64,000 nt of DNA from an uncultured virus (IMG/VR IMGVR_UViG_3300031912_000006) (taxonomy: Duplodnaviria; Heunggongvirae; Uroviricota; Caudoviricetes). The stretch lies in the IMG/VR virus record IMGVR_UViG_3300031912_000006; one strand, 5' to 3'. The notes beneath the pieces were generated by a model. The model ran no database searches, was not told the DNA's origin, and was given only the letters and a program-made list of their open reading frames with translations. Positions within the stretch are counted from its first letter, which is position 1, and the number at the start of each line of letters is the position of its first letter. Shown piece by piece: positions 2,341-52,246 of the stretch. The position numbers and the translations under genes are program-made.

Positions 2341-4152
2341 CTAATTCCATTCGATCAGCGTATAACCCTGCGCACCATTGTTCCCAGAACCGTTGTTAGT
2401 CGGTCCCATCCCGCCACCGCCACCGCCACCACCGTAGAGGCCGCCAGCGCCACCAGTACCACCATAGACGAGTGCCTGCGATGATCCACCACCGCCGCCT
2501 CCACCACCGCCTGGGTTACCGGAGCCACCGCCCGTTCCGGCACCACCTCCAGAACCACCACCTGCGCCACCGCCTACCGTGGCTGAGTTACCACCATAAC
2601 CACCTGATGTCTGCTGGAATGCCGCTTCCTTTGCACCAGCGCCACCACCACCAGCAGCATTCCCACTCGCCGCAGGAGGTTGACCGGGAACAGACACACC
2701 ACCAGGAACGGTCCCGCCCACGCCGCCGTTGTATGTCGCTGACGGAAGAACAGGCCCGCTGGCTGAAGGGGTACCACCGGCGGCACCACCGCCACCGGAA
2801 CCTCCCCCGCCACCACCGCCTGCTGTCCAAGAAATAGAGCCTGAACTAAACACGGACGCACCACTATTGGCGGCACCTACAGTCACTGAATATGTAGAGC
2901 CAAGGTTAGCTACTGGTATGAATGTACGTGCTATACCGGCACCACCACCACCACCGCTACCAGGACCGGGACCACCGGCACCACCGGCCCCAACTAGGGT
3001 GACATAGCAACCAGTACAACCTGCCGGGATAGGCTGATTGGAACGGGCCGTGTTGGTCTCGTTGAACGGCGTAAAGACGATAGATGCTAGCGTACCACCA
3101 CCGCTGAAGTTCGCTGTGAGGAACGCAGTTAGTTTCGGAACGTTGAAGTTGCTGAATAGGATTACACCAGGAGCGCCGGAACCACTGTTGTAGCCAAGTA
3201 ATTGAGCTTGCATAGCTCCAAGCCCAATAGTGGTGTCCGTTGCTTCGGATCGTTGGACAGTCCAGGTATTGCAGTCTGGTGATGTTTCCCAATAAATCGT
3301 TCCAGACGCTTCGCGGATACGCCAAAACTTCATATTGGCGTTCCATGCTACAGTTACGTCGTTGATCCCACCGGCAGCAGTTGTCTTGCGTAAGTAGAGA
3401 GTTGCGTTGTTGTACTCCCAAATCGAATACCCATAACCCGCCAGGTCCAAGACAAGCATCTGAGTGACGTTGTTGCCTGGCGTACCACCGCCCTGCTCGG
3501 CGGTTTGAATACAGCACACTTCGGCAGAACTGTTCTGTAAGTTGAAGTAACCGTTGCTGGTTATCGCTTGGTTGGCGTTGATACCTGGAATGATCTTCAG
3601 GTACTGGCCGTTGACTACTGAACAGCCTGAGGTCCAGTTCCACTTCACCGTGTCTTTGGTTGCGAAGTTGTCCGTCAGCGTAGACATCGCCGCGTTCGAC
3701 TTCACAGTCATCGTAGCCGCTAACGATCCCGCGCCAGAGAATGCGGCCTGCAACTGCGGGACTAGTGTTGCCGATAACGCACCATCGCCAGAGAAGTTGG
3801 CAGGCAACACGATTGCGTTCTTGATTACGTCTGCGCTGAGGGTGCCTACGCTGCCAAAGTTCGCTGCTATCTTTGGCTGTATGTAAGCCGATAGCGCGCC
3901 ATTGCTGCTGAATGCTGGTGCTAGCGGGCATATTTGACTTACCGTAGCTGCTAGTTGACCATCGCCTGAGAATTGCCCTGTTACCGGAGCTATGGCTTTG
4001 ATTGTCGCACTTAGCGTTCCGTCGCCGCTGAACAGTGCAAAGTGAGGTATAACCCAGCCCTGTAATGGCGGAACTGTTGGCGCAGATGGGGTTACAGCCC
4101 AGCCCTTGACTGGGACTGCCCCTGGTGTTGATGGAGATTCGGCCCATGCCAC
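2341..4152 (-). CDS. Minor tail protein with FSGxGxLSA repeats, a central lectin-like domain and a Gly-rich C-terminus
   Basis: 603 aa; Gly-rich C-terminal domain ending GYTLIEW, as in mycobacteriophage minor tail proteins. Confidence 0.8.
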   Translation of the reverse strand: MAWAESPSTPGAVPVKGWAVTPSAPTVPPLQGWVIPHFALFSGDGTLSATIKAIAPVTGQFSGDGQLAATVSQICPLAPAFSSNGALSAYIQPKIAANFGSVGTLSADVIKNAIVLPANFSGDGALSATLVPQLQAAFSGAGSLAATMTVKSNAAMSTLTDNFATKDTVKWNWTSGCSVVNGQYLKIIPGINANQAITSNGYFNLQNSSAEVCCIQTAEQGGGTPGNNVTQMLVLDLAGYGYSIWEYNNATLYLRKTTAAGGINDVTVAWNANMKFWRIREASGTIYWETSPDCNTWTVQRSEATDTTIGLGAMQAQLLGYNSGSGAPGVILFSNFNVPKLTAFLTANFSGGGTLASIVFTPFNETNTARSNQPIPAGCTGCYVTLVGAGGAGGPGPGSGGGGGAGIARTFIPVANLGSTYSVTVGAANSGASVFSSGSISWTAGGGGGGGSGGGGAAGGTPSASGPVLPSATYNGGVGGTVPGGVSVPGQPPAASGNAAGGGGAGAKEAAFQQTSGGYGGNSATVGGGAGGGSGGGAGTGGGSGNPGGGGGGGGGSSQALVYGGTGGAGGLYGGGGGGGGMGPTNNGSGNNGAQGYTLIEWN

Positions 4153-7400: not shown

Positions 7401-9173
7401 ATTGGCGGGTATATCAGACTCAATAACAGCAAGGAAGTCTACAGTGTCGAAACCAGTAGGAACGGTAACCGTTGCGCCAAGCTGCTGCCACGCACCAGTA
7501 GCAGGCATGGCTAGCTCTTGCGCAATTACATCTGTAGGCGTAGCAACGCCTTTGGAGTCAGTACAATGCATGACGAGCTTGATATGCCCGCCACCGACAT
7601 TGCCGACTTTGGGGTATATCCAAGCCGTCTGCTTGAAGACGTAGTTAGGCTGTACGACTAGCGTTTGTGGGCCCATATCTGAACGCAGCATATGCATAGT
7701 CTGCGTTGTGCCAGTCGCAGTAACCTTCAATGACTTGGTACCGCTGTGGGCTACGTCTGTGCTAAGTACGCCAACCGCGCCCGGCCAGTTGAGGTTCTGC
7801 TCAAAGCTAGGGTCGAATACCCAGTTGTATCCAGCTTTGTAGAACACCTGGAAGATAGGCAGGTATGACGAAAGGAATTGGCCGCTAGTGATTTTGCTGG
7901 CGTCTAGGCCTGGTATATTTACCGGAGATAGCAGTTGCGTGGTAGGGTTCATGGGCGCCAACAGATTTGTTGGCTGAACCAAGCTTGTGATAAAGTCCTC
8001 AACGTACGTAACAGGATCAAACGGCGTAGCGAGCAGCGCCGGGTTAGAGAACATGCTGAGCAAGTTTGTAAAGTACGTAGTGGTCTGCGCTTGCGTACCG
8101 CTCCCGGCAGGCACACCAACAGATGCTAGAATCGCATCCCAAACCACTTGTGTCCCACCAACTATGCCAGAGATGACATCCATGGCTAGATTCTCTAATG
8201 GGATGACACCAGTCACACCCATACCAGAGCCACCAGTCAAGTCAGAGCTTAGTAACGCAACTACGTTGGTCTGAGAGACAGTGCCGGTGAACCAATCGCT
8301 TATAGTGGCTATTGGGTCAAAAGTACCAGACGGCACGAAGTTTAGATTGCCGAATAACGAAGCGAAGTTCAAGATGCCGTTGATGTCGTTAACGCCACCG
8401 GCGAATGACTCGATGATCGCGGTCAACCCGTTAAGTATCTGCGCAAGTTCTTCGATCCACGGAGCCGTAGTCTTAAACACCGGGTCAATAAGATTACCAA
8501 GGGTTGTGATGTCCATGCCGCCGAGAAGCACTGTGACAGAATGCCATATATCAGCGAACACTTGGTCAAAGGGACCCATAATCTGGATCATGTCTTCGAC
8601 AGCCGTCAGCAAATCTTCAAAGCTCATGGCCAAGCCGCTGATAGCGTCTAGCAAGTCGTTGACCGACTGAATCCACTCAGGGTCTATGCCAAGGGCAGTC
8701 GCCCAGCCATCAATGATGCCTTCGATGACGCTGCCGAAACTATCAAGGGGCACAACGTAACCCAAGAAGAAATGCTCAGCCGCGTTGAAGAGGTTGATCG
8801 GGAACGGAGTTGTAGTGTCGAAGCCGAGCAGCGCGCCAATCGCCGGCAGGAAGTACTGGAGGTCACCAAGGTCTATGCCGTACAGAAGTTCACCGCCGCC
8901 AAGCAGCACGATGATATCGCTTATGGTGCCTTGGAGTTGACCGATTGCGTCCTGATTGCTCTGGTCGATACCCTTCTGCATCTGGCCAATGTACGATGCG
9001 ATGTAATCAACAAATTGATTGAGGCGTACGATGTTTGCCTCAAAGTCTTTGTTGGTGTCAGGGTACTTTGTACTATCAATCGCAGAGAGTGCCCTAGTCT
9101 CTGGCGATTGGTAGCCAAACGCTCTGTCGATACTCATGGTAGCTTCAAGTTCAGCATTCCTGTTGTCGGCCAA
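4440..9173 (-). CDS. Large minor tail protein with LDASKITxG repeats and carbohydrate-binding-like domains
   Basis: 1577 aa; repeated IPGLDASKITSGQF; two (D/N)PxF/Y...WQQLxG beta-sandwich modules. Confidence 0.85.
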   Translation of the reverse strand: MADNRNAELEATMSIDRAFGYQSPETRALSAIDSTKYPDTNKDFEANIVRLNQFVDYIASYIGQMQKGIDQSNQDAIGQLQGTISDIIVLLGGGELLYGIDLGDLQYFLPAIGALLGFDTTTPFPINLFNAAEHFFLGYVVPLDSFGSVIEGIIDGWATALGIDPEWIQSVNDLLDAISGLAMSFEDLLTAVEDMIQIMGPFDQVFADIWHSVTVLLGGMDITTLGNLIDPVFKTTAPWIEELAQILNGLTAIIESFAGGVNDINGILNFASLFGNLNFVPSGTFDPIATISDWFTGTVSQTNVVALLSSDLTGGSGMGVTGVIPLENLAMDVISGIVGGTQVVWDAILASVGVPAGSGTQAQTTTYFTNLLSMFSNPALLATPFDPVTYVEDFITSLVQPTNLLAPMNPTTQLLSPVNIPGLDASKITSGQFLSSYLPIFQVFYKAGYNWVFDPSFEQNLNWPGAVGVLSTDVAHSGTKSLKVTATGTTQTMHMLRSDMGPQTLVVQPNYVFKQTAWIYPKVGNVGGGHIKLVMHCTDSKGVATPTDVIAQELAMPATGAWQQLGATVTVPTGFDTVDFLAVIESDIPANDVVYLDDLEVLDTNQSQSVYNQILQSVGVPPGVGTGAIAGQYFTDLMSMLGNPNVSQGGFSPTTAVTNFINTMINPTSLLAPMSPVTKLIPAINIPGLDASKITSGQFAQSMVNITSIAASIITGVLGAAQIPGLDASKITTGQFAQSMVNLTNIPASIVTGVLGATQIPGLDASKIISGQFAQSMVTNLTTDLANRVLTTTYNTLLNQLYGGTTVLSSILAGNVPALDASKITTGQFAQSMVNITNIPASIVTGALNAAQIPSLDASKIISGVFTVPLIPPLDASQIQSGMFGQWVLPNIPLGSIGQITPNLLPNPNYASAASVATNPDWTWTSGVDHTGDGSGSVSTSCTGALKNLLSDPPTPVAPNQTLALSHYLQWSGVTGSGNCFQLSVLAYNGPNLVSTNVLQTISNPAASGAWQQLSGNFTIPASGVNNVRLQLSVLAGATAGTTWWDDGSITKTQLLFKQWMQGTGGTLVNELATMVTDTQSRSTQADMMSLVNNLGIGSFANVGAALTPITNRLQGLPANGTVLAGFIPSLDATKIATGILGTARIPPVTLAMAPDLQTLNDNATNALVGAQTLLTGTTTAQANQSMQSIFTNVLYNTQALQQQAAINQGTSVSGVSITVNFAAYPDGAMPSFFTVTYNGPGTSQIGIKGGLAGWFPANNDGTRTAFVIYNAQGTLTDWQKISGSMSAAPAGANAGGQPYFYALGRVDSASNPRNYVFGRAYCTGFLTYKADVGYCVAGTETVWATGIALTWSTAMMVVIGANGNNRTFQVFSGTQLVWSGTEPGTNSLIGSGYRLFGAKNTICQGSGGSSTAGTLSGTSVADNAPPAVLGSTFRAHRASTTAYTAPSGGLTALPAGFFDTQDWISPDLNWDGQNLKFTVEGTYLVNLRAAVNNIPRGVWADLGIVGSSIRVVGGSFADTGTSAQSNNGVYGSTLIYAHNGDSIQPATYASAAFSIVGEPGGSQTYMEVTLVNRSVA

Positions 9174-47736: not shown

Positions 47737-48034
47737 TTACATTCCCTTCTAGTTGTTCCAGCGGTACGCCAGCCAAGTAGGCGTACTCTTTGGACATTAA
47801 CTCCTGCTTCGGTATGACGATACAATCGGTGGGTATGTCCCCAACCACCACCGTCATGTACTTCGGTTCAATCCCCATCTCTCGCAACAGCTTTAGAATG
47901 GGCTTCTGCTGCTGACTGCCCATCACGCCAGCCATCTTCTGTAGCAGCGACATAGCTTGTGCTCGTTGCTGTTCCGTCACATGCTGAGTGGCGGGGTTCA
48001 CATACCCGTCACTTAATCCAGACATAACCCCCAC
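47708..48034 (-). CDS. Hypothetical protein
   Basis: 108 aa between dnaE and thyX. Confidence 0.6.
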   Translation of the reverse strand: MGVMSGLSDGYVNPATQHVTEQQRAQAMSLLQKMAGVMGSQQQKPILKLLREMGIEPKYMTVVVGDIPTDCIVIPKQELMSKEYAYLAGVPLEQLEGNVSGETSTEVG

Positions 48035-50304
48035 ATCTCCTTCACTAGTATGTTGGTGCCGAAACCGTCGCGCTTTCGGCCTTTTACGATGAGCACGTCT
48101 TTGCCGTTTGTCCGTAGTGTCTCCAATCTATCGGCAAATCTGTTGAAGTCAAAGCGATTAATGCGGCAGTGAACGTCCTCATCACCATCGTCTATACACT
48201 TGACCACACACAGTTTCGTTAGCTCCGGTTCATCTATCTCAGCCAGTATCTCTTCTGTCGTCTTGTCGGTCCTGGCGCGCTCGTCTTCCACGATGTCCTT
48301 GTATTCCTTCGCTACCGGAATACCAACCCACACAACATCAAACGAGCCATCCATGGCCAGGTCATCGCTCGTGTGCGTAGGGTCAGGGATACCAGGGAAA
48401 CTGCCGGCTGCTATATCCCCACGAATCTCCTCAAGAATGCGATGAATCCTGTTGATGCCGAACGGGTCTGGGTCAGCCGCGAACAGCTTAATGCGCTCAA
48501 TAGTCTTGGGTCCAATCCCCTTGACCTTAATGAGGTCGTCCCAAGTAGGCGCGGTTTCCCAGTGCGTCGATTCCAGGTAATCCACAATAGCTCGTGCGTA
48601 TTTGGGCCCAATTCCCTTGATCTGTAAGAAACCCGCGCACACAGTACGCTTGTCGGTTCGTGTCCAGCTGACTTGAGAGTCCACAATGTCAGGTGGTACC
48701 ACTTTAATCCCGTGCCGCATAGCATCTTTGATGAGCTTTGTTCGCTTGTACTCATCGTCAGCTTTCCTTAGACGAGCCGCGTAGAACGCAGCCGGGTGGT
48801 GCTGCTTGAACCACTGACACCACCATGCGATGATCGCGTAGCCGGTGGAGTGCGCGGTAACGAACGTGTAGGTGGCGCTCGTAACCATGAATCGCCATAT
48901 GCGCAAGGCTAACTGGGCGTCTATACCGTGAAGCTCCAGCGCACCCTTCTCAAATCGGTCATAGAAACTGCCGAACTGCGCCTCACCTAGCTTCTGCGAG
49001 ATGATGTAACGTATCTCGTGGACACGGTCAAGTGGAAACCCGCCAACCTCTTTGATGATCCTGAGGATTTGCTCTTGGAAGATGATCTGGCCGCGTGTCT
49101 GGCGGGTTTCCTGAGTTACGATGGGGTGCAATCGTTTTGGCTGTGCGCGTCCGTGCTTGACGTCGCAGTAGTCGCCAGTTGTGCCAGAGAACAATGGGCC
49201 TGGTCTCGACAGCGAGTTGATATCAACCAGTTCTTGGAACGTATCAGGCCGCACGTCACGGCACACGAGTCTTGTTGCGCGGCCTTCAAATTGGAAGATA
49301 CCAATTACATCACTCCTATGGAAAGCCTTCATTGTCTTGCGGTCGTCTAGCGGGATACGGTACACATCCTCCAACGACATACCGACCATTTCGGCCGCAG
49401 TACCGAGCACGTTCATGGTGCTAAGGCCCAAGATGTCGAGCTTCAAGAAGCCCATGTACTTTGAGTCCTTCTTGTCGTACGCTATGACGGAAGTCTCAAC
49501 ACCCGCAGTTGTTTTCGTGTACGAAGCGCAAGCGTCAGTGATGGGCGTATTCGAGATGACGAGACCAGCCGCGTGGACGCCCATACCACGGTAATTACCT
49601 TCCAATCGGACGGCATTGGCAATTGTCGGATACGCATCCAAAACCTCTTGGGCTCTTGGGAATACGGCAAACGTATCCTCAAGAGAATTGCCCTCCCGCG
49701 AGTCTCCACCACCACGTTCAATGATAAGACGCTTGACTTTGTCTGCCTCCCAACTTGGGATGTGATAGACTCGTGCGACATCGTCTATGCTGTTCTTTCC
49801 CTTGTATCTCATGAAGTTTGCGACTTTACCCGTTTTATCTGCGCCGTAACGACTTGCCGCGTAGTCGAAGACTTCTTGTCTACGCTCATCATCAAAGTCC
49901 AAGTCGATGTCGGGCAAATCGTTTCGGCTTGGGTCGATGAACCTTTCAAAAAGCAGACGGTCAAATACCACGGGATCAATCTCCGTGATACGGAGAAGAT
50001 AGCATACGACGCTAGCAGACGCTGACCCACGTCCAGGTCCAACCGCAATACCATGGTCCTTAGCCCACCTGACAATGTCGCTCGTGACCAGGAAGTAGTC
50101 AACGAAACCTTTGCCAATGATAAGCTCCAACTCCGCTTCCACTCTGTCGATGTATAGCTGGGGTCGGTTGAGCATACTTTCGTTTTGCGTGATGTCAAGG
50201 CGATAATCCCATCCACAATTTAGCCAGTGCCGCAACAGCTTTACTGCCTCATCAGACGGTTTAAGATTGATCGCGTACGTAGTGAGATCAGGTTTTACGA
50301 CCAC
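48013..50304 (-). CDS. dnaE: DnaE-like DNA polymerase III alpha, catalytic part
   Basis: GPGRGS, FERF, PDIDLD, HAAG, KLDILGL, GIFQFE. Confidence 0.95.
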   Translation of the reverse strand: MVVKPDLTTYAINLKPSDEAVKLLRHWLNCGWDYRLDITQNESMLNRPQLYIDRVEAELELIIGKGFVDYFLVTSDIVRWAKDHGIAVGPGRGSASASVVCYLLRITEIDPVVFDRLLFERFIDPSRNDLPDIDLDFDDERRQEVFDYAASRYGADKTGKVANFMRYKGKNSIDDVARVYHIPSWEADKVKRLIIERGGGDSREGNSLEDTFAVFPRAQEVLDAYPTIANAVRLEGNYRGMGVHAAGLVISNTPITDACASYTKTTAGVETSVIAYDKKDSKYMGFLKLDILGLSTMNVLGTAAEMVGMSLEDVYRIPLDDRKTMKAFHRSDVIGIFQFEGRATRLVCRDVRPDTFQELVDINSLSRPGPLFSGTTGDYCDVKHGRAQPKRLHPIVTQETRQTRGQIIFQEQILRIIKEVGGFPLDRVHEIRYIISQKLGEAQFGSFYDRFEKGALELHGIDAQLALRIWRFMVTSATYTFVTAHSTGYAIIAWWCQWFKQHHPAAFYAARLRKADDEYKRTKLIKDAMRHGIKVVPPDIVDSQVSWTRTDKRTVCAGFLQIKGIGPKYARAIVDYLESTHWETAPTWDDLIKVKGIGPKTIERIKLFAADPDPFGINRIHRILEEIRGDIAAGSFPGIPDPTHTSDDLAMDGSFDVVWVGIPVAKEYKDIVEDERARTDKTTEEILAEIDEPELTKLCVVKCIDDGDEDVHCRINRFDFNRFADRLETLRTNGKDVLIVKGRKRDGFGTNILVKEMWGLCLD

Positions 50305-51236
50305 GGTAGCCAGTCCTTCCCCTCAATTGGATACCGCAGCGGTTCTACCTTTGCGAGCTTCACGTCACAACGATCAGCTATCACCCCGGTGTTCGAGAGT
50401 GCTTGTAACGCACCATCTTCCGTTAACCCCGTGCCCAAAAGGTCTTGGTACACGCGCTCGTCGCTCTCTGGTATGTCTAGTGTTACGTTGTACTCCCAAG
50501 CCGCTTCTGTGGCGGATACGCTAGAACCACGGTGAGCCGCATGAAGAACCTTCTGCATCTCGTTGTCTCTAGCATAGACATAATGACAGTCGCTCGTCGC
50601 AGCAAGTTGTGCTCCGGTGTCTCTGGAAATGCGCTCGTAGGCCTGATTGATCTTACAAGTTCGACGCAGCGCAGGAAAGCGCTGAGTTTCAAGGTAGTAC
50701 CTGTCGCCAAATACCTCTTGGTACCATTCCACGACCCCAAGGGCACGCCGATATTGCTCTGGGTCGAATCTGAATCCTGGTGCACCGTAAGACTTTCCAC
50801 CAAAGAGCGTGCAGGCAAGCACCGAATCAGAACATCCAGAGAGTACAATGAGTCCGTCACTAAACTCCTCAAGCATCTCAACGTGAATCGTCGGAAACCG
50901 TGTCTTGCTGGTTCTCCCAATGGTTTTCCACGACTCAACGACTAACTTGTTCAGGTTTGAATAACCAGCCTGCGTCATGGCTAGGATGGTCTGATGGCAC
51001 TTCCTGCGCTCGTTGGGCGGGGCAACGTAACCCTCAAGGCCGAACAGCGGTTTGATGCCAAACTTGGTACACGCCTTCTCAAGCTGTACATGGCTCGACA
51101 CGTTACCTCAACCATGTTCCGTCAACGCCATAGCTTTCATACCAAGCGTTGCACAACGCTCAACATGTTCTTCAGGCAAACCATAACCATCTCCATATGA
51201 AAAAGTCGAATGGTGGTGTAACGAAACATAATCCAT
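50295..51236 (-). CDS. dnaE: DnaE PHP domain gene with an in-frame UGA at codon 43 (51108-51110)
   Basis: GGAGGTGA SD and ATG 51236 give MDYVSLHHHSTFSYGDG...ALTEHG*GNVSSHVQ..., continuing in frame to 50295 with the later PHP motif ATSDCHY. Confidence 0.85.
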
Positions 51237-51241
51237 TTATA

Positions 51242-51691
51242 TCACCTCCCACGATGATAACGGCGGGTGTTATCGCCTGGTGTTATTTCTTCTAAGTGAT
51301 CTGTGTTCCAACAATTTTTACGTTCACACATATGATCAACTGTCATGCCTCGCGTTAAAGTTTCGCCATCTAAGATTAACGCTAACCTGTGTATTCGCAC
51401 AAATTTACCGTGATACCAAATCTGTTGATACTTATGAATTTTGTCTATACCATCATATAGCCAACACGGAGTATCAAAATTTGGATGTTTAACGACATCC
51501 GTTCTAGCCCAAAGCCTATCAAGTACAGGCTGTTCCTTTCGCCCAGCACGCTCCTTATAGACACATACCCTATCTGAATGAGCAACTACTTGCCCATCGC
51601 CAGTGCGGTAGTCTACTGCAGATTCATAATCTGAAAGTATTGGCTCGCAATAGATTCCGGTGTTTATCGGAGCTTTACTCACGTTCGTCAT
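51242..51691 (-). mobile_element. HNH homing endonuclease gene
   Basis: CWLY...IHRL...VDHMCERKNCWNTDHL..ITPGDN; core about 36% GC by hand count. Confidence 0.85.
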
Positions 51692-51703: not shown

Positions 51704-52246
51704 CTAGTCCCTTTTAGCCTGTTTAGGATCGAGTAGGGCTAATAAAAGGTGACCAATTAAGTCCATCATGATCTCTGGAACCTGCTCTCCCACAAGAGGT
51801 TTGCCATCCCACAACGCCTTCTTCAGCTTACCAACCTTGCGCCACAGGTCAACAAATTGACCTTTAGCACCTAGTTTGAACTCATCGAAGTCGTCACCGT
51901 AATCCTTGTTCTTATTGAGGAATAGCTCCAACACCTTTGGCAATACGCAGAGTAGAATGCGCTCTGATTGTACCGTTGGTGGGTTAGCAATTTCAATCGT
52001 GATCAGGCCCAAGCTATGGTTGATGTTATCCGGCTCACCCCAAGCGCGCACACGAATCTCGTGTAATGGCAATGGATTTGGCTCAACCTCCATGGGCACT
52101 CCTGGGTTGGCATTCATCACTTCGCTCATGACTTCAGCGGTAGGTCGTAACCCAGCTTGATCGCGTATTACGTCTGCTTGCGATGTGCTTGGATAGCCGG
52201 GGTAACCGCGCTCTTCAAGTTTCTTCGCCATGTAATCATCAGTCAT
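51704..52246 (-). CDS. Nucleotide-modification-associated (Nmad1/DUF1599-like) protein
   Basis: KNKDYGD...G...DLWRKV.KL motif. Confidence 0.7.
   Translation of the reverse strand: MTDDYMAKKLEERGYPGYPSTSQADVIRDQAGLRPTAEVMSEVMNANPGVPMEVEPNPLPLHEIRVRAWGEPDNINHSLGLITIEIANPPTVQSERILLCVLPKVLELFLNKNKDYGDDFDEFKLGAKGQFVDLWRKVGKLKKALWDGKPLVGEQVPEIMMDLIGHLLLALLDPKQAKRD

What the first reader, a model, noticed from the sequence alone, without database searches (positions are those of the whole stretch)
51105..51691. HNH endonuclease plus the interrupted 5' end of dnaE look like one AT-rich mobile cassette (T4 mobA/gene 60 analogue)
Seen: by hand count, GC is about 36% in the HNH core (51281-51500), about 43% in the first 42 PHP codons and about 54% just downstream of the UGA. 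The compositional step falls close to the TGAGGT insertion. The HNH stop codon overlaps the PHP SD. Known: in T4 the HNH gene mobA lies next to gene 60, and the bypassed gap protects against MobA cleavage, so the two spread together. Inference: this HNH may cut insertion-free TEHGN-coding DNA in related phages, with the 6-nt insertion acting as the immunity mark. The first ~55 aa of the HNH ORF (to ...RKEQP) may be the captured original N-terminus of the PHP gene.
Basis: partly seen in the sequence, partly recalled or inferred. Interest (0 to 1): 0.85.

Follow-up and report, generated by a model that had tools for sequence, protein, structure and literature searches.

The report
HNH cassette interrupting phage DnaE gene
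A selfish nuclease gene appears to have carried into this soil phage's DNA-polymerase gene a re-coded gene start and a six-letter insert containing a stop signal; related phages show the same arrangement, and ribosomes may have to hop over the stop.

Summary
An HNH gene (51242-51691, minus strand) sits directly upstream of the DnaE-type PHP gene. Codon 42 (GGT) of that gene is followed by TGA GGT, which is absent from intact relatives. GC is 0.359 in the HNH core, 0.429 in PHP codons 1-42 and 0.571 in the next 126 nt.

The cassette reading is strongly supported. A contig from run X24 matches the window at 96% downstream of the insert. It lacks the 6 nt, and 8 of its 30 visible upstream bases differ, all synonymously.

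Cultured relatives repeat the pattern:
- Leopard and Aikoy, compared with Onyinye.
- Xenia2, Ranch and Patos, compared with DumpTruck.
- Each carries an HNH gene, a synonymously re-coded 5' exon and a 5-9 nt insert that begins with an in-frame stop.

Four homologues of the window's HNH share contig lengths with PHP genes cut at codon 42.

The "captured N-terminus" idea is not supported. Immunity from the insert is inferred, not shown.

How PHP is expressed is open. The candidates are a GGU-UGA-GGU stop-hop (about 0.4), stop-restart, or a truncated protein.

No description was found in five literature searches. I rate it a new variant of the T4 mobA/gene 60 kind.

The parts
51704..52246 (-). 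Conserved upstream neighbour (180 aa, unknown function); left flank of the cassette
   Evidence: Hits PHROG phrog_10271 at E 1.3e-21. Homologues precede the PHP gene in 12 of 12 loci. In L007 and L012 they abut the PHP gene directly.
51242..51691 (-). Free-standing HNH endonuclease gene, 149 aa, GC 0.427 (core 0.359), GC3 0.349
   Evidence: D119, H120, N126, H132 and N141 are invariant in alignment A1. The gene is absent from L006-L012 and Onyinye.
51245..51250 (-). GGGAGG Shine-Dalgarno for PHP, overlapped by the HNH stop TGA (51244-51242)
   Evidence: Read directly from the sequence.
51111..51236 (-). PHP 'exon 1': codons 1-42 (MDYVSLHHH...ALTEHG), AT-shifted at synonymous sites; last codon GGT (51113-51111) is the candidate take-off codon
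   Evidence: GC3 is 13 of 42. Pfam PHP hit at E 4.5e-9. 8 of 30 nt differ, all synonymously, from the insert-free X24 allele.
51105..51110 (-). 6-nt insert TGA GGT: an in-frame stop plus a second Gly codon (candidate landing codon); GAGG at 51109-51106 is also SD-like
   Evidence: Absent from Onyinye and from the X24 contig. In the PHP loci read it is absent from all contigs other than the window lineage and L023: 34 of 37 loci and 47 of 48.
50295..51104 (-). PHP 'exon 2': the remaining 268 codons, in frame with exon 1; GTG at 51101-51099 is a possible restart codon
   Evidence: Pfam PHP hit at E 1.3e-17. 85% aa identity to L006. 96% nt identity to the X24 contig over 50790-51107.
48013..50304 (-). 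DnaE polymerase core gene (763 aa), a separate gene as in Onyinye gp84; context only
   Evidence: Pfam DNA_pol3_alpha hit at E 6e-71. Onyinye has split genes 82 and 84.

Best explanation
The stretch is a homing-type mobile cassette. It consists of a free-standing HNH endonuclease gene, a replacement copy of the first 42 codons of the phage's DnaE-PHP (proofreading-domain) gene, and a 6-nt insert, TGA GGT.

Inferred mechanism: the HNH cuts or nicks cassette-free PHP genes of co-infecting relatives near the TEHG|N codons. Repair then copies the HNH gene, the re-coded exon and the insert from the donor. The insert, probably together with the synonymous re-coding, spoils the target and so protects the carrier.

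Because the insert puts a stop inside a conserved catalytic segment, PHP must be expressed in an unusual way. I favour a +6 'stop-hop': peptidyl-tRNA-Gly leaves GGU when UGA is in the A site, re-pairs with the next GGU, and decoding resumes at AAC, giving the wild-type TEHGN protein.

What is shown is the architecture, the foreignness of the block, its sharp right boundary, and its recurrence and linkage. What is inferred is cleavage, immunity and the hop.
For: (1) Composition. GC3 is 13 of 42 in codons 1-42 against 155 of 269 downstream (p 0.0015). All 7 relatives show the opposite or no trend.

(2) An insert-free allele in the window's own lineage. A 432-nt contig from run X24 matches 50790-51107 with 13 other letters and 2 gaps. 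It then continues ...CTA ACC GAG CAC joined directly to GGT AAC. It lacks the 6 nt, and 8 of its 30 visible upstream nt differ from the window, all synonymously (8/30 vs 13/318, Fisher p 1e-4).

(3) The same architecture in cultured phages that have near-isogenic HNH-free sisters.
- Leopard: HNH-like gp81 plus the 5-nt insert TAGCC after codon 10. 8 of 30 nt upstream differ from Onyinye, against 5 of 924 downstream.
- Aikoy: HNH gp82 plus TGAAC after codon 14. 14 of 42 nt upstream differ, against 7 of 912 downstream.
- All upstream changes are synonymous.
- Xenia2, Ranch and Patos share an HNH, an identical exon 1 and a 9-nt insert TAGGTGGCC after codon 13, in two different DnaE backgrounds. 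DumpTruck and LuckyLeo have neither HNH nor insert.

(4) Linkage within the window's HNH family.
- HNH homologues P0004 (70% identity), P0007 (60%), P0008 (59%) and P0009 (56%) have longest contigs of 63290, 66505, 8345 and 1708 nt.
- Contigs of the same lengths carry 42-aa exon-1 ORFs ending TEHG (P0013, P0012) and N-truncated PHP ORFs (P0028, P0125, P0070, P0112).
- No HNH homologue shares a contig length with a full-length PHP protein.
- L017, a 66% HNH homologue, sits at the same locus.

(5) Rarity elsewhere.
- Among 61 distinct PHP 5' ends from viral contigs, only the window lineage and L023 are interrupted. Both have an HNH or HNH-like ORF directly upstream.
- A table built from these calls plus the cultured phages gives 5 interrupted lineages, all with an HNH or HNH-like ORF upstream, 5 intact loci with an HNH upstream, and 50 intact loci without one. 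Fisher p is 4.6e-5. This is illustrative only: it is not corrected for relatedness, and Xenia2 was found by following an HNH.

(6) Evidence for the hop.
- GGT TGA GGT is the layout of the synthetic 'stop-hops', in which 9 nt specify one residue (review passages).
- L023 has GGT TGA GGC at the same site, within a one-piece DnaE gene that has no in-frame start for 20 codons after the stop.
- In all 6 DNA-verified cases the triplet just 5' of the resume codon matches the take-off codon at positions 2-3: GGT/GGT, GGT/GGC, TCT/GCC, TAT/AAC, TCC/GCC, and CCG/CCG in HubbaBubba. I estimate chance at about 1/8 per case.
- The N-termini of P0034 (MVEGNVSS), P0112 (MNGNTSS) and P0070 (LNNGNTSS) imply inserts of 7, 8 and 11 nt after GGT TGA, each ending in a second GGN just before AAC. 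This is inferred from protein; the DNA was not seen.
Against: - The composition boundary is loose. The best GC3 change point is after codon 35, and the all-position optimum is at 51162.
- Against the nearest assembled relative, L006, nt identity of codons 1-42 (0.817) is no lower than downstream (0.80, 0.81, 0.76).
- L023 shows no compositional step: GC3 is 26 of 42 against 210 of 300, p 0.29.
- L023's upstream ORF is unrelated to the window's HNH. It falls in phrog_4160 and has no Pfam hit. So the insert is not tied to one enzyme.
- Five loci (L025, L052, L054, L055, L062) have an HNH upstream of an intact PHP gene.
- There are no cleavage data. The Pfam score is below the curated cut-off, and no usable structure model was obtained.
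- Against the hop: restart codons exist in the exon-2 frame. In the window this is GTG, 4 nt after GAGG. In Xenia2 it is TAG-GTG. In Aikoy and the inferred 8- and 11-nt variants it is a TTGA overlap. In the 7-nt variant it is ATG.
- Unstimulated stop-hopping is described as low-level.
- No conserved RNA structure was found around the site. Fold z-scores ran from -2.4 to -0.2, and the L023 hairpin is not kept in the window.
- Identifying contigs by equal length is indirect.
Confidence: 0.6

Rival explanations
1. Same cassette, but the insert turns PHP into two genes. Ribosomes terminate at UGA and restart at once (in the window at GTG 51101, using GAGG as the SD). This gives a 42-aa piece and a 268-aa piece that assemble, or a 268-aa piece that works alone. 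It would be 'genes in pieces', like mobE-split nrdA.
For: A start codon in the exon-2 frame lies at or beside the stop in the window, in Xenia2, Ranch and Patos (TAG GTG) and in Aikoy (TTGA). The same holds for the inferred 7-, 8- and 11-nt variants. GenBank annotators of Ranch and Patos start DnaE at that GTG. Split targets of MobA and MobE that still function are described in the preprint (section 12).
Against: L023 has no in-frame ATG, GTG or TTG for 20 codons after the stop. Leopard has none before codon 25. HubbaBubba has no stop and no start at its junction. Free peptides of 10-14 aa (Leopard, Xenia2, Aikoy) are unlikely to complement a catalytic barrel. This model also does not explain the duplicated Gly codon or the landing-triplet matches.
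Confidence: 0.22
2. Same cassette, but the invasion simply damaged the gene. The N-terminal metal-binding HxH segment is lost, and the phage tolerates an inactive or truncated PHP domain, or none. Stops and matched triplets would then be incidental, or repair scars.
For: Cultured carriers are viable, with genes annotated as N-terminally truncated. In the window's clade PHP is a separate gene from the polymerase core, so its loss need not kill replication. The preprint describes homing endonuclease genes as possibly mildly deleterious.
Against: Exon 1 keeps every conserved residue in 6 diverged interrupted lineages (P0011, P0012, P0013, P0015, P0018, L023), while the linked HNHs have drifted to 56-70% identity. 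All changes in the re-coded exons of Leopard and Aikoy, and in the 30 nt of the window's exon 1 that X24 shows, are synonymous. Exon 2 is open to its natural C-terminus in the window and in P0028, P0034, P0070, P0112 and P0125. In 5 of 5 DnaE/PHP cases the insert starts with an in-frame stop. In L023 and the Xenia2 group the stop sits in a one-piece DnaE gene. Repeated fresh homing could, however, mimic this conservation.
Confidence: 0.13
3. UGA is read through or reassigned (Trp, Gly, Sec or a suppressor tRNA), giving TEHG-X-G-N with two extra residues.
For: The 6-nt insert is in frame. The review notes that stop-hops and readthrough differ by only two residues in the product.
Against: TGA ends 16 of 39 long ORFs in the window, including the HNH gene itself. 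The window holds no tRNA gene. The sister cases have 5-nt inserts and 7-nt inserts, and inferred 7-, 8- and 11-nt inserts. Readthrough cannot restore the frame in any of these.
Confidence: 0.04
4. No mobility: the low GC is ordinary 5'-end codon bias and the HNH is an old resident. The insert would be a private mutation or an artefact.
For: The change point is loosely placed. There is no divergence step against L006.
Against: Relatives show the opposite GC3 trend. The X24 allele lacks the insert. The insert is identical in all five related records compared with the window. HNH presence or absence among sister phages, with boundaries exactly at the inserts, is seen repeatedly.
Confidence: 0.01

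Closest known systems
Phage T4 mobA (HNH) plus the 50-nt gene 60 translational bypass cassette
   Same: In both, an HNH homing endonuclease gene, a divergent element-borne copy of adjoining target coding sequence ('homR'), and a short non-coding insert inside a conserved replication-gene segment travel as one element. The insert starts with a stop right after a Gly take-off codon, and a matched Gly landing codon precedes the resume codon. In T4 the insert blocks MobA nicking. The endonuclease can be swapped for another family while the insert stays, as with L023 versus the window. Sources: preprint 10.1101/2022.08.31.505936 (abstract and section 12) and review PMC5009743 (passages).
   Different: Here the insert is 6 nt (5-11 nt in relatives), not 50. 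There is no gap-internal SD, and no take-off stem-loop or KKYK-type nascent-peptide signal was found. The target is a DnaE PHP gene (Cas4 in HubbaBubba), not topoisomerase. The HNH lies upstream of the whole gene rather than splitting it. The hosts are actinobacteria. Bypass and immunity are untested. Homology of this HNH to MobA was not tested.
Synthetic 'stop-hops' in E. coli (Weiss et al. 1987, as cited in review PMC5009743)
   Same: Matched codons flank a stop, so that 9 nt specify one amino acid. This is exactly GGU UGA GGU.
   Different: Those were engineered constructs with low-level hopping. The 2016 review says no natural occurrences are known. Here the motif is natural, is conserved across diverged phages, and lies in a catalytic segment.
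mobE-split nrdA of Aeromonas phage Aeh1 (genes in pieces)
   Same: A free-standing HNH element breaks a conserved replication-related gene, and function is kept without splicing (described in preprint section 12).
   Different: There the HEG sits between the two halves, which carry added tails and assemble as proteins. Here the halves are contiguous, separated by 6 nt, and the first is only 42 aa (10-14 aa in relatives).
Free-standing homing endonucleases with co-conversion of flanking markers (T4 seg and mob genes)
   Same: Both show presence or absence between sister phages, insertion between conserved genes, and replacement of adjacent target sequence. Sources: review PMC2988022 and paper PMC2790892; I saw only the search listing and the start of each abstract.
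   Different: As I recall (not checked here), immunity in those systems is by point polymorphisms, not by a stop-bearing insert in the reading frame.
Candidate UUA-triggered bypass in the Streptomyces phage phiHau3 terminase; mitochondrial 'byps' of Magnusiomyces capitatus
   Same: Both involve short-range bypass in an actinophage, or of short mobile inserts. Two-out-of-three landing matches are tolerated in the mitochondrial case. Sources: PMC10732093 (abstract and passages) and the review.
   Different: No endonuclease linkage is reported in what I read. The triggers differ: a rare UUA codon or unused codons. The genes differ as well.

Membership tests
HNH (His-Me finger) free-standing homing endonuclease | HNH catalytic motif | tested here: met
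   Hits phrog_826 'HNH endonuclease' at E 2.3e-16. Pfam HNH_3 hit at E 8.5e-4, below the curated cut-off. D119, H120, N126, H132 and N141 are invariant in 9 sequences.
HNH (His-Me finger) free-standing homing endonuclease | Sporadic presence at one locus among related genomes | tested here: met
   Absent from L006-L012 and Onyinye. A 66% homologue lies at the same locus in L017. Other HNH genes occupy the site in L006, Leopard and Aikoy.
HNH (His-Me finger) free-standing homing endonuclease | Co-conversion of adjacent target sequence | tested here: met
   The window's exon 1 is AT-shifted, and 8 of 30 nt differ from the insert-free X24 allele, against 13 of 318 downstream. Analogous boundaries are seen in Leopard, Aikoy and Xenia2.
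HNH (His-Me finger) free-standing homing endonuclease | Site-specific cleavage of the endonuclease-free allele and biased inheritance | not testable with these tools
   Needs enzyme assays and mixed infections.
T4 mobA / gene 60 bypass cassette | Endonuclease gene, element-borne target copy and coding-gap insert move as one unit | tested here: met
   Linkage is seen in 4 of 4 assessable HNH homologues.
T4 mobA / gene 60 bypass cassette | Stop directly 3' of the take-off codon, and a matched landing codon 5' of the resume codon | tested here: met
   GGT TGA GGT AAC; GGT TGA GGC AAC in L023.
T4 mobA / gene 60 bypass cassette | 50-nt gap with stem-loops, a gap SD, and a nascent-peptide signal; insertion in the topoisomerase Toprim domain | tested here: not met
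   The gap is 6 nt, the target is DnaE PHP, and no conserved structure was found. So this is not a member. It resembles the T4 element in layout only.
T4 mobA / gene 60 bypass cassette | Insert protects against the element's nuclease; full-length protein made by bypass | not testable with these tools
Stop-hop (9 nt = 1 residue) | Identical codons flanking a stop, in frame | tested here: met
   The definition comes from the review passages.
Stop-hop (9 nt = 1 residue) | Product lacks the two extra residues that readthrough would give | not testable with these tools
   Needs mass spectrometry.
Genes in pieces (HEG-split gene) | The second piece has its own start signal and the pieces assemble | tested here: inconclusive
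   The window has GTG at 51101 with GAGG 4 nt upstream. L023, Leopard and HubbaBubba lack such a start.

The most novel reading that the evidence does not exclude
Actinobacteriophages carry a family of natural short-range translational hops (5-11 nt). Each is planted in a replication gene (DnaE PHP or Cas4) by a homing-endonuclease cassette that brings a re-coded 5' exon and a stop- or rare-codon-led mini-insert as its immunity mark. The window's GGU-UGA-GGU would be the first natural 'stop-hop'. It would be testable in cultured Mycobacterium smegmatis and Gordonia phages (Leopard, Aikoy, Xenia2, HubbaBubba).
Probability: 0.4. Interest if true: 0.92.

Novelty: new variant of a known kind. Interest (0 to 1): 0.85.

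Why it matters
Programmed bypass has rested mainly on one bacterial-virus example, T4 gene 60. The 2016 review says that natural in-frame stop-hops are unknown.

Here the minimal stop-hop motif sits in a catalytic segment of a phage polymerase gene. It is linked to a homing endonuclease, and it has sister cases with 5-, 7- and 9-nt inserts in plaque-forming phages of non-pathogenic laboratory hosts. These cases have near-isogenic insert-free controls (Onyinye, DumpTruck, IDyn).

This makes two questions directly testable. First, how short inserts give homing immunity. Second, whether ribosomes hop short gaps in nature.

It also shows that several GenBank DnaE and Cas4 genes of actinophages are annotated with wrong, truncated starts.

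Tried and rejected
- The window's own assembly is not held. The nearest record, G001, is identical over the region and adds nothing independent.
- An AlphaFold2 model of the HNH from a 9-sequence alignment had mean pLDDT 43.8, so no fold search was run.
- A profile search of PDB sequences gave 0 hits at E up to 1.
- The search of earlier findings returned nothing.
- The metagenome-contig scan with the HNH alignment gave only 2 loci, one identical to the window and one cut. Viral-contig scans with the HNH gave only the window lineage.
- A scan of genome contigs for the TEHG-TGA-GGN-AAY pattern gave 17 matches, 0 of them in a PHP gene. My estimate of the chance expectation is about 35.
- A variable-gap pattern (0-12 nt) in viral contigs found only the 4 stretches already known. 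The 7-, 8- and 11-nt variants therefore remain inferred from protein N-termini.
- RNA folding of 111 nt around five junctions showed no shared structure.
- Send513's two annotated features under one match turned out to be a trivial overlap.
- The HNH-like genes of HubbaBubba and Xenia2 gene 64 lie near Cas4, not DnaE.
- In read laying, parts without contig cover say nothing. X24 is an RNA library, but that does not show transcription.
- Rejected ideas: a captured PHP N-terminus in the HNH ORF; UGA reassignment; an assembly artefact.
Full report
WHAT IS THERE

All genes of the region run on the minus strand. In order they are:
- a conserved 180-aa gene (51704-52246; phrog_10271);
- a 149-aa HNH ORF (51242-51691);
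- a 42-codon ORF that is the start of a DnaE-type PHP domain (51236-51111; Pfam PHP E 4.5e-9);
- TGA GGT (51110-51105);
- the remaining 268 PHP codons in the same frame (to 50295);
- a separate polymerase-core gene (48013-50304).

A split between PHP and core is normal for this clade. Mycobacterium phage Onyinye has genes 82 and 84. Onyinye gp82 reads ...ALTEHGNVSSHVQLEK without a break, so the window carries a 6-nt insert containing an in-frame stop.

The HNH stop lies inside the PHP Shine-Dalgarno sequence GGGAGGTGA.

CHECK OF THE NUMBERS

GC is 0.359 in 51281-51500, 0.429 in codons 1-42 and 0.571 in the next 126 nt. The window as a whole is 0.543.

At third codon positions the step is clearer: 13 of 42 against 155 of 269 (p 0.0015). 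In all seven relatives examined, codons 1-42 are as GC-rich as the rest of the gene or richer.

The step is only loosely placed. The best GC3 change point is after codon 35. Codon 44 is 0.27 lnL worse, with permutation p 0.015. The all-position optimum is at 51162.

The insert is identical in all five related records compared with the window, which differ from it at 0-9 positions over 5-8 kb. The 42-aa ORF is on record from 36 contigs.

IS THE BLOCK FOREIGN, AND WHERE DOES IT END?

The nearest assembled relative, L006 (85% aa), has two other ORFs at this site. One is a Pfam HNH. Its PHP gene is intact. Its nt identity to the window shows no step (0.817 upstream against about 0.80 downstream).

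A closer allele came from laying public contigs on the stretch. A 432-nt contig from run X24 matches 50790-51107 with 13 other letters and 2 gaps. It then runs on with letters that read, in gene sense...ATG GCG CTA ACC GAG CAC joined directly to GGT AAC.
- It has one Gly codon and no TGA.
- Eight of its 30 visible upstream bases differ from the window, all synonymously (8/30 against 13/318, p 1e-4).
- In five of the eight differences the window has A/T where the contig has G/C.

So in the window's own lineage, similarity breaks exactly at the insert.

THE SAME ARCHITECTURE IN CULTURED PHAGES

tblastn with Onyinye gp82 showed that two near-identical phages match only from residues 8-10 onward.

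Leopard has an HNH-like gene 81. After PHP codon 10 it has a 5-nt insert (TCT | TAGCC | ACT).

Aikoy has an HNH gene 82. After codon 14 it has TAT | TGAAC | GGC.

Compared with Onyinye:
- Leopard differs at 8 of 30 nt before the insert and 5 of 924 after it. The first difference after the insert is at nt 525.
- Aikoy differs at 14 of 42 nt before the insert and 7 of 912 after it.
- Every upstream change is synonymous.

Following Aikoy's HNH led to Gordonia phages Xenia2, Ranch and Patos. Each has the HNH gene, an identical exon 1, and TCC | TAGGTGGCC | TAC after codon 13 of a one-piece DnaE gene.
- DumpTruck (95% identical to Xenia2) and LuckyLeo have neither HNH nor insert.
- The DnaE sequence behind the insert follows DumpTruck in Xenia2 but a LuckyLeo-like sequence in Ranch and Patos. 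So one cassette sits in two backgrounds.
- Erutan and NorManre carry the HNH. Their 5' ends were not read.

GenBank annotations start these genes downstream or upstream of the true start.

HOW SPECIFIC IS THE LINK?

Interruption is rare among viral-contig PHP loci:
- Of 38 loci related to the window's clade, 37 N-termini could be read. Only the 3 loci of the window lineage are interrupted.
- Of 48 loci related to L023, only L023's own contig is interrupted.
- After removing duplicates, 61 distinct 5' ends remain. 54 upstream ORFs were scanned against Pfam. Five close duplicates and two loci without an upstream ORF were left out.
- HNH hits upstream of intact genes: L052, L054, L055 and L062, plus L025/L006.

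A pattern scan for T-E-H-G-TGA-GGN-N found 4 stretches in viral contigs, all in PHP genes. In prokaryote genome contigs it found 17, none in a PHP gene.

The fourth viral stretch, L023, is a phage only about 65% identical in DnaE. It has GGT TGA GGC AAC at the same codon of a one-piece DnaE gene. Its directly adjoining 108-aa ORF is 41% identical to Leopard gp81 and unrelated to the window's HNH.

THE WINDOW'S HNH FAMILY

Eight homologues of 145-151 aa, at 49-71% identity, cover 95-97% of the query, N-terminus included. L017, a 66% homologue, lies behind the same upstream neighbour, but the contig ends inside the HNH.

Searching with the 42-aa exon found other 42-aa ORFs ending TEHG: P0012, P0013, P0015 and P0018. 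Searching with exon 2 found N-truncated PHP ORFs.

Longest-contig lengths tie these together:
- 63290 nt: HNH P0004, exon 1 P0013, exon 2 P0028.
- 66505 nt: P0007, P0012, P0125.
- 8345 nt: P0008, P0070.
- 1708 nt: P0009, P0112.
- 4180 nt: P0015, P0034.

The other four HNH homologues are on contigs under 1.9 kb. No HNH homologue shares a contig length with a full-length PHP protein. This is indirect, because the contigs could not be read.

THE CAPTURED N-TERMINUS IDEA

This is rejected for the window. It is real in a sister system. In Gordonia phage HubbaBubba the HNH-like gene 63 begins with the original 13 codons of the Cas4-family exonuclease gene. A re-coded copy of the Cas4 5' end follows the HNH. 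That copy is separated from the rest of Cas4 by a net 7-nt insert, CCG | AGAT | CCG CAG, when compared with the HNH-free phage IDyn.

HOW IS PHP MADE?

Readthrough or reassignment is unlikely.
- TGA ends 16 of 39 long ORFs in the window.
- The window holds no tRNA gene.
- Inserts of 5 and 7 nt, and inferred inserts of 7, 8 and 11 nt, cannot be rescued by readthrough.

Two models remain, besides plain damage.

Hop. GGU UGA GGU is the stop-hop layout known from synthetic constructs. The review states that no natural case is known.
- In all six DNA-verified junctions, the triplet before the resume codon matches the take-off codon at positions 2-3. Three of these match fully or synonymously.
- I estimate chance at about 1/8 per junction.
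- L023, Leopard and HubbaBubba offer no restart codon.
- The N-termini MVEGNVSS, MNGNTSS and LNNGNTSS fit GGT TGA followed by G, AC or ACAAC and then a second GGN AAC. This would keep the Gly pair while the insert length and the reading frame change.

Restart. GTG, TTG or ATG lies in the exon-2 frame at or beside the stop in the window, Xenia2, Aikoy and the inferred variants.
- The motif TTGAAC recurs in Aikoy and in the 8-nt variant. This weakens Aikoy's landing match.
- Unstimulated hops are low-level.
- No shared RNA structure was found.

I put the hop at about 0.4, restart or split at about 0.22, and damage at about 0.13.

COMPARISON WITH KNOWN SYSTEMS, AND LITERATURE

The layout parallels the T4 MobA element as described by Manning & Atkins (abstract and section 12 read). 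That element combines an endonuclease, an element-borne divergent target copy, and an insert that blocks nicking. The insert has a stop after the take-off codon and a matched landing codon. The endonuclease can be swapped. The source for MobA nicking is reference 19 of that preprint. I recall it as Bonocora et al. 2011 but have not seen it.

The window's element is not a member of that family: insert length, signals and target gene all differ.

Five full-text searches found no description of HNH-linked mini-inserts in actinophage DnaE or Cas4 genes, and none of a natural stop-hop. Related proposals do exist for the phiHau3 terminase (abstract and passages) and for Bxb1 gp50/51 (passages). The Xenia2 announcement lists HNH gene 79 and DnaE gene 80 without comment (passage). 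Supplements were not consulted.

VERDICT

The cassette interpretation is well supported. The immunity role is plausible but untested. The captured-N-terminus idea is rejected. Expression by a natural stop-hop is the leading hypothesis, is open, and can be tested in cultured relatives.

Noticed in passing
L114 (Gordonia phage HubbaBubba, PV105555.1) about 2393-3120; L142 (IDyn): HNH-like gene 63 starts with the original 13 codons of the Cas4-family exonuclease gene. A re-coded second copy of the Cas4 5' end follows, and it is out of frame with the rest of the gene through a net 7-nt insert (CCG AGAT CCG CAG, against CCG CAA CGG in HNH-free IDyn). The codon after the first CCG is the rare AGA, there is no stop, and no restart codon is available. 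Cas4 is annotated from an internal start.
   Followed up: partly
L023 about 2495-2530 (minus strand): A 10-bp hairpin (GCCUUGACCG / CGGUUGAGGC, loop AACA) encloses the take-off GGU, the UGA and the landing GGC. The 6 inserted bases pair with the Ala-Leu codons upstream. The hairpin is not kept in the window, where two G-G mismatches break it.
   Followed up: partly
L084 and L093 (viral contigs), match 2501-3869 and 2501-3689: The tblastn match to 334 residues of L023 DnaE spans 1369 and 1189 nt instead of about 1002. These PHP regions therefore hold extra inserts, possibly inteins or other elements.
   Followed up: no
L001 (Onyinye) between genes 81 and 82, about 8514-8587: The HNH-free intergenic space holds a 21-codon ORF (MAGRKGKGYRLPKKFNGIKCF). 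Homology between Leopard and Onyinye ends just after that ORF's start. It may be a remnant of a lost endonuclease gene.
   Followed up: no
window 50295-50304: The PHP stop and the polymerase-core start overlap (GTGGTCGTAA), with no gene between them. Onyinye has a 92-aa gene 83 between the two.
   Followed up: no
phage records Kabocha, Schomber, Chidiebere (hits H9, H22-H24, H136-H139): HNH-like matches lie under a feature annotated as RecA-like recombinase, or under no feature. This may be another HNH insertion in or beside a replication or recombination gene.
   Followed up: no
L030 2103-2495: In this relative, a staphylococcal-nuclease-like ORF (Pfam SNase, E 1e-6) occupies the slot directly upstream of an intact PHP gene.
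   Followed up: no
L006 2089-2870: Two consecutive ORFs sit between the conserved neighbour and an intact PHP gene. One is a Pfam HNH. The other has a Cys/His pattern but no Pfam hit. Their GC is like the rest of the genome.
   Followed up: partly
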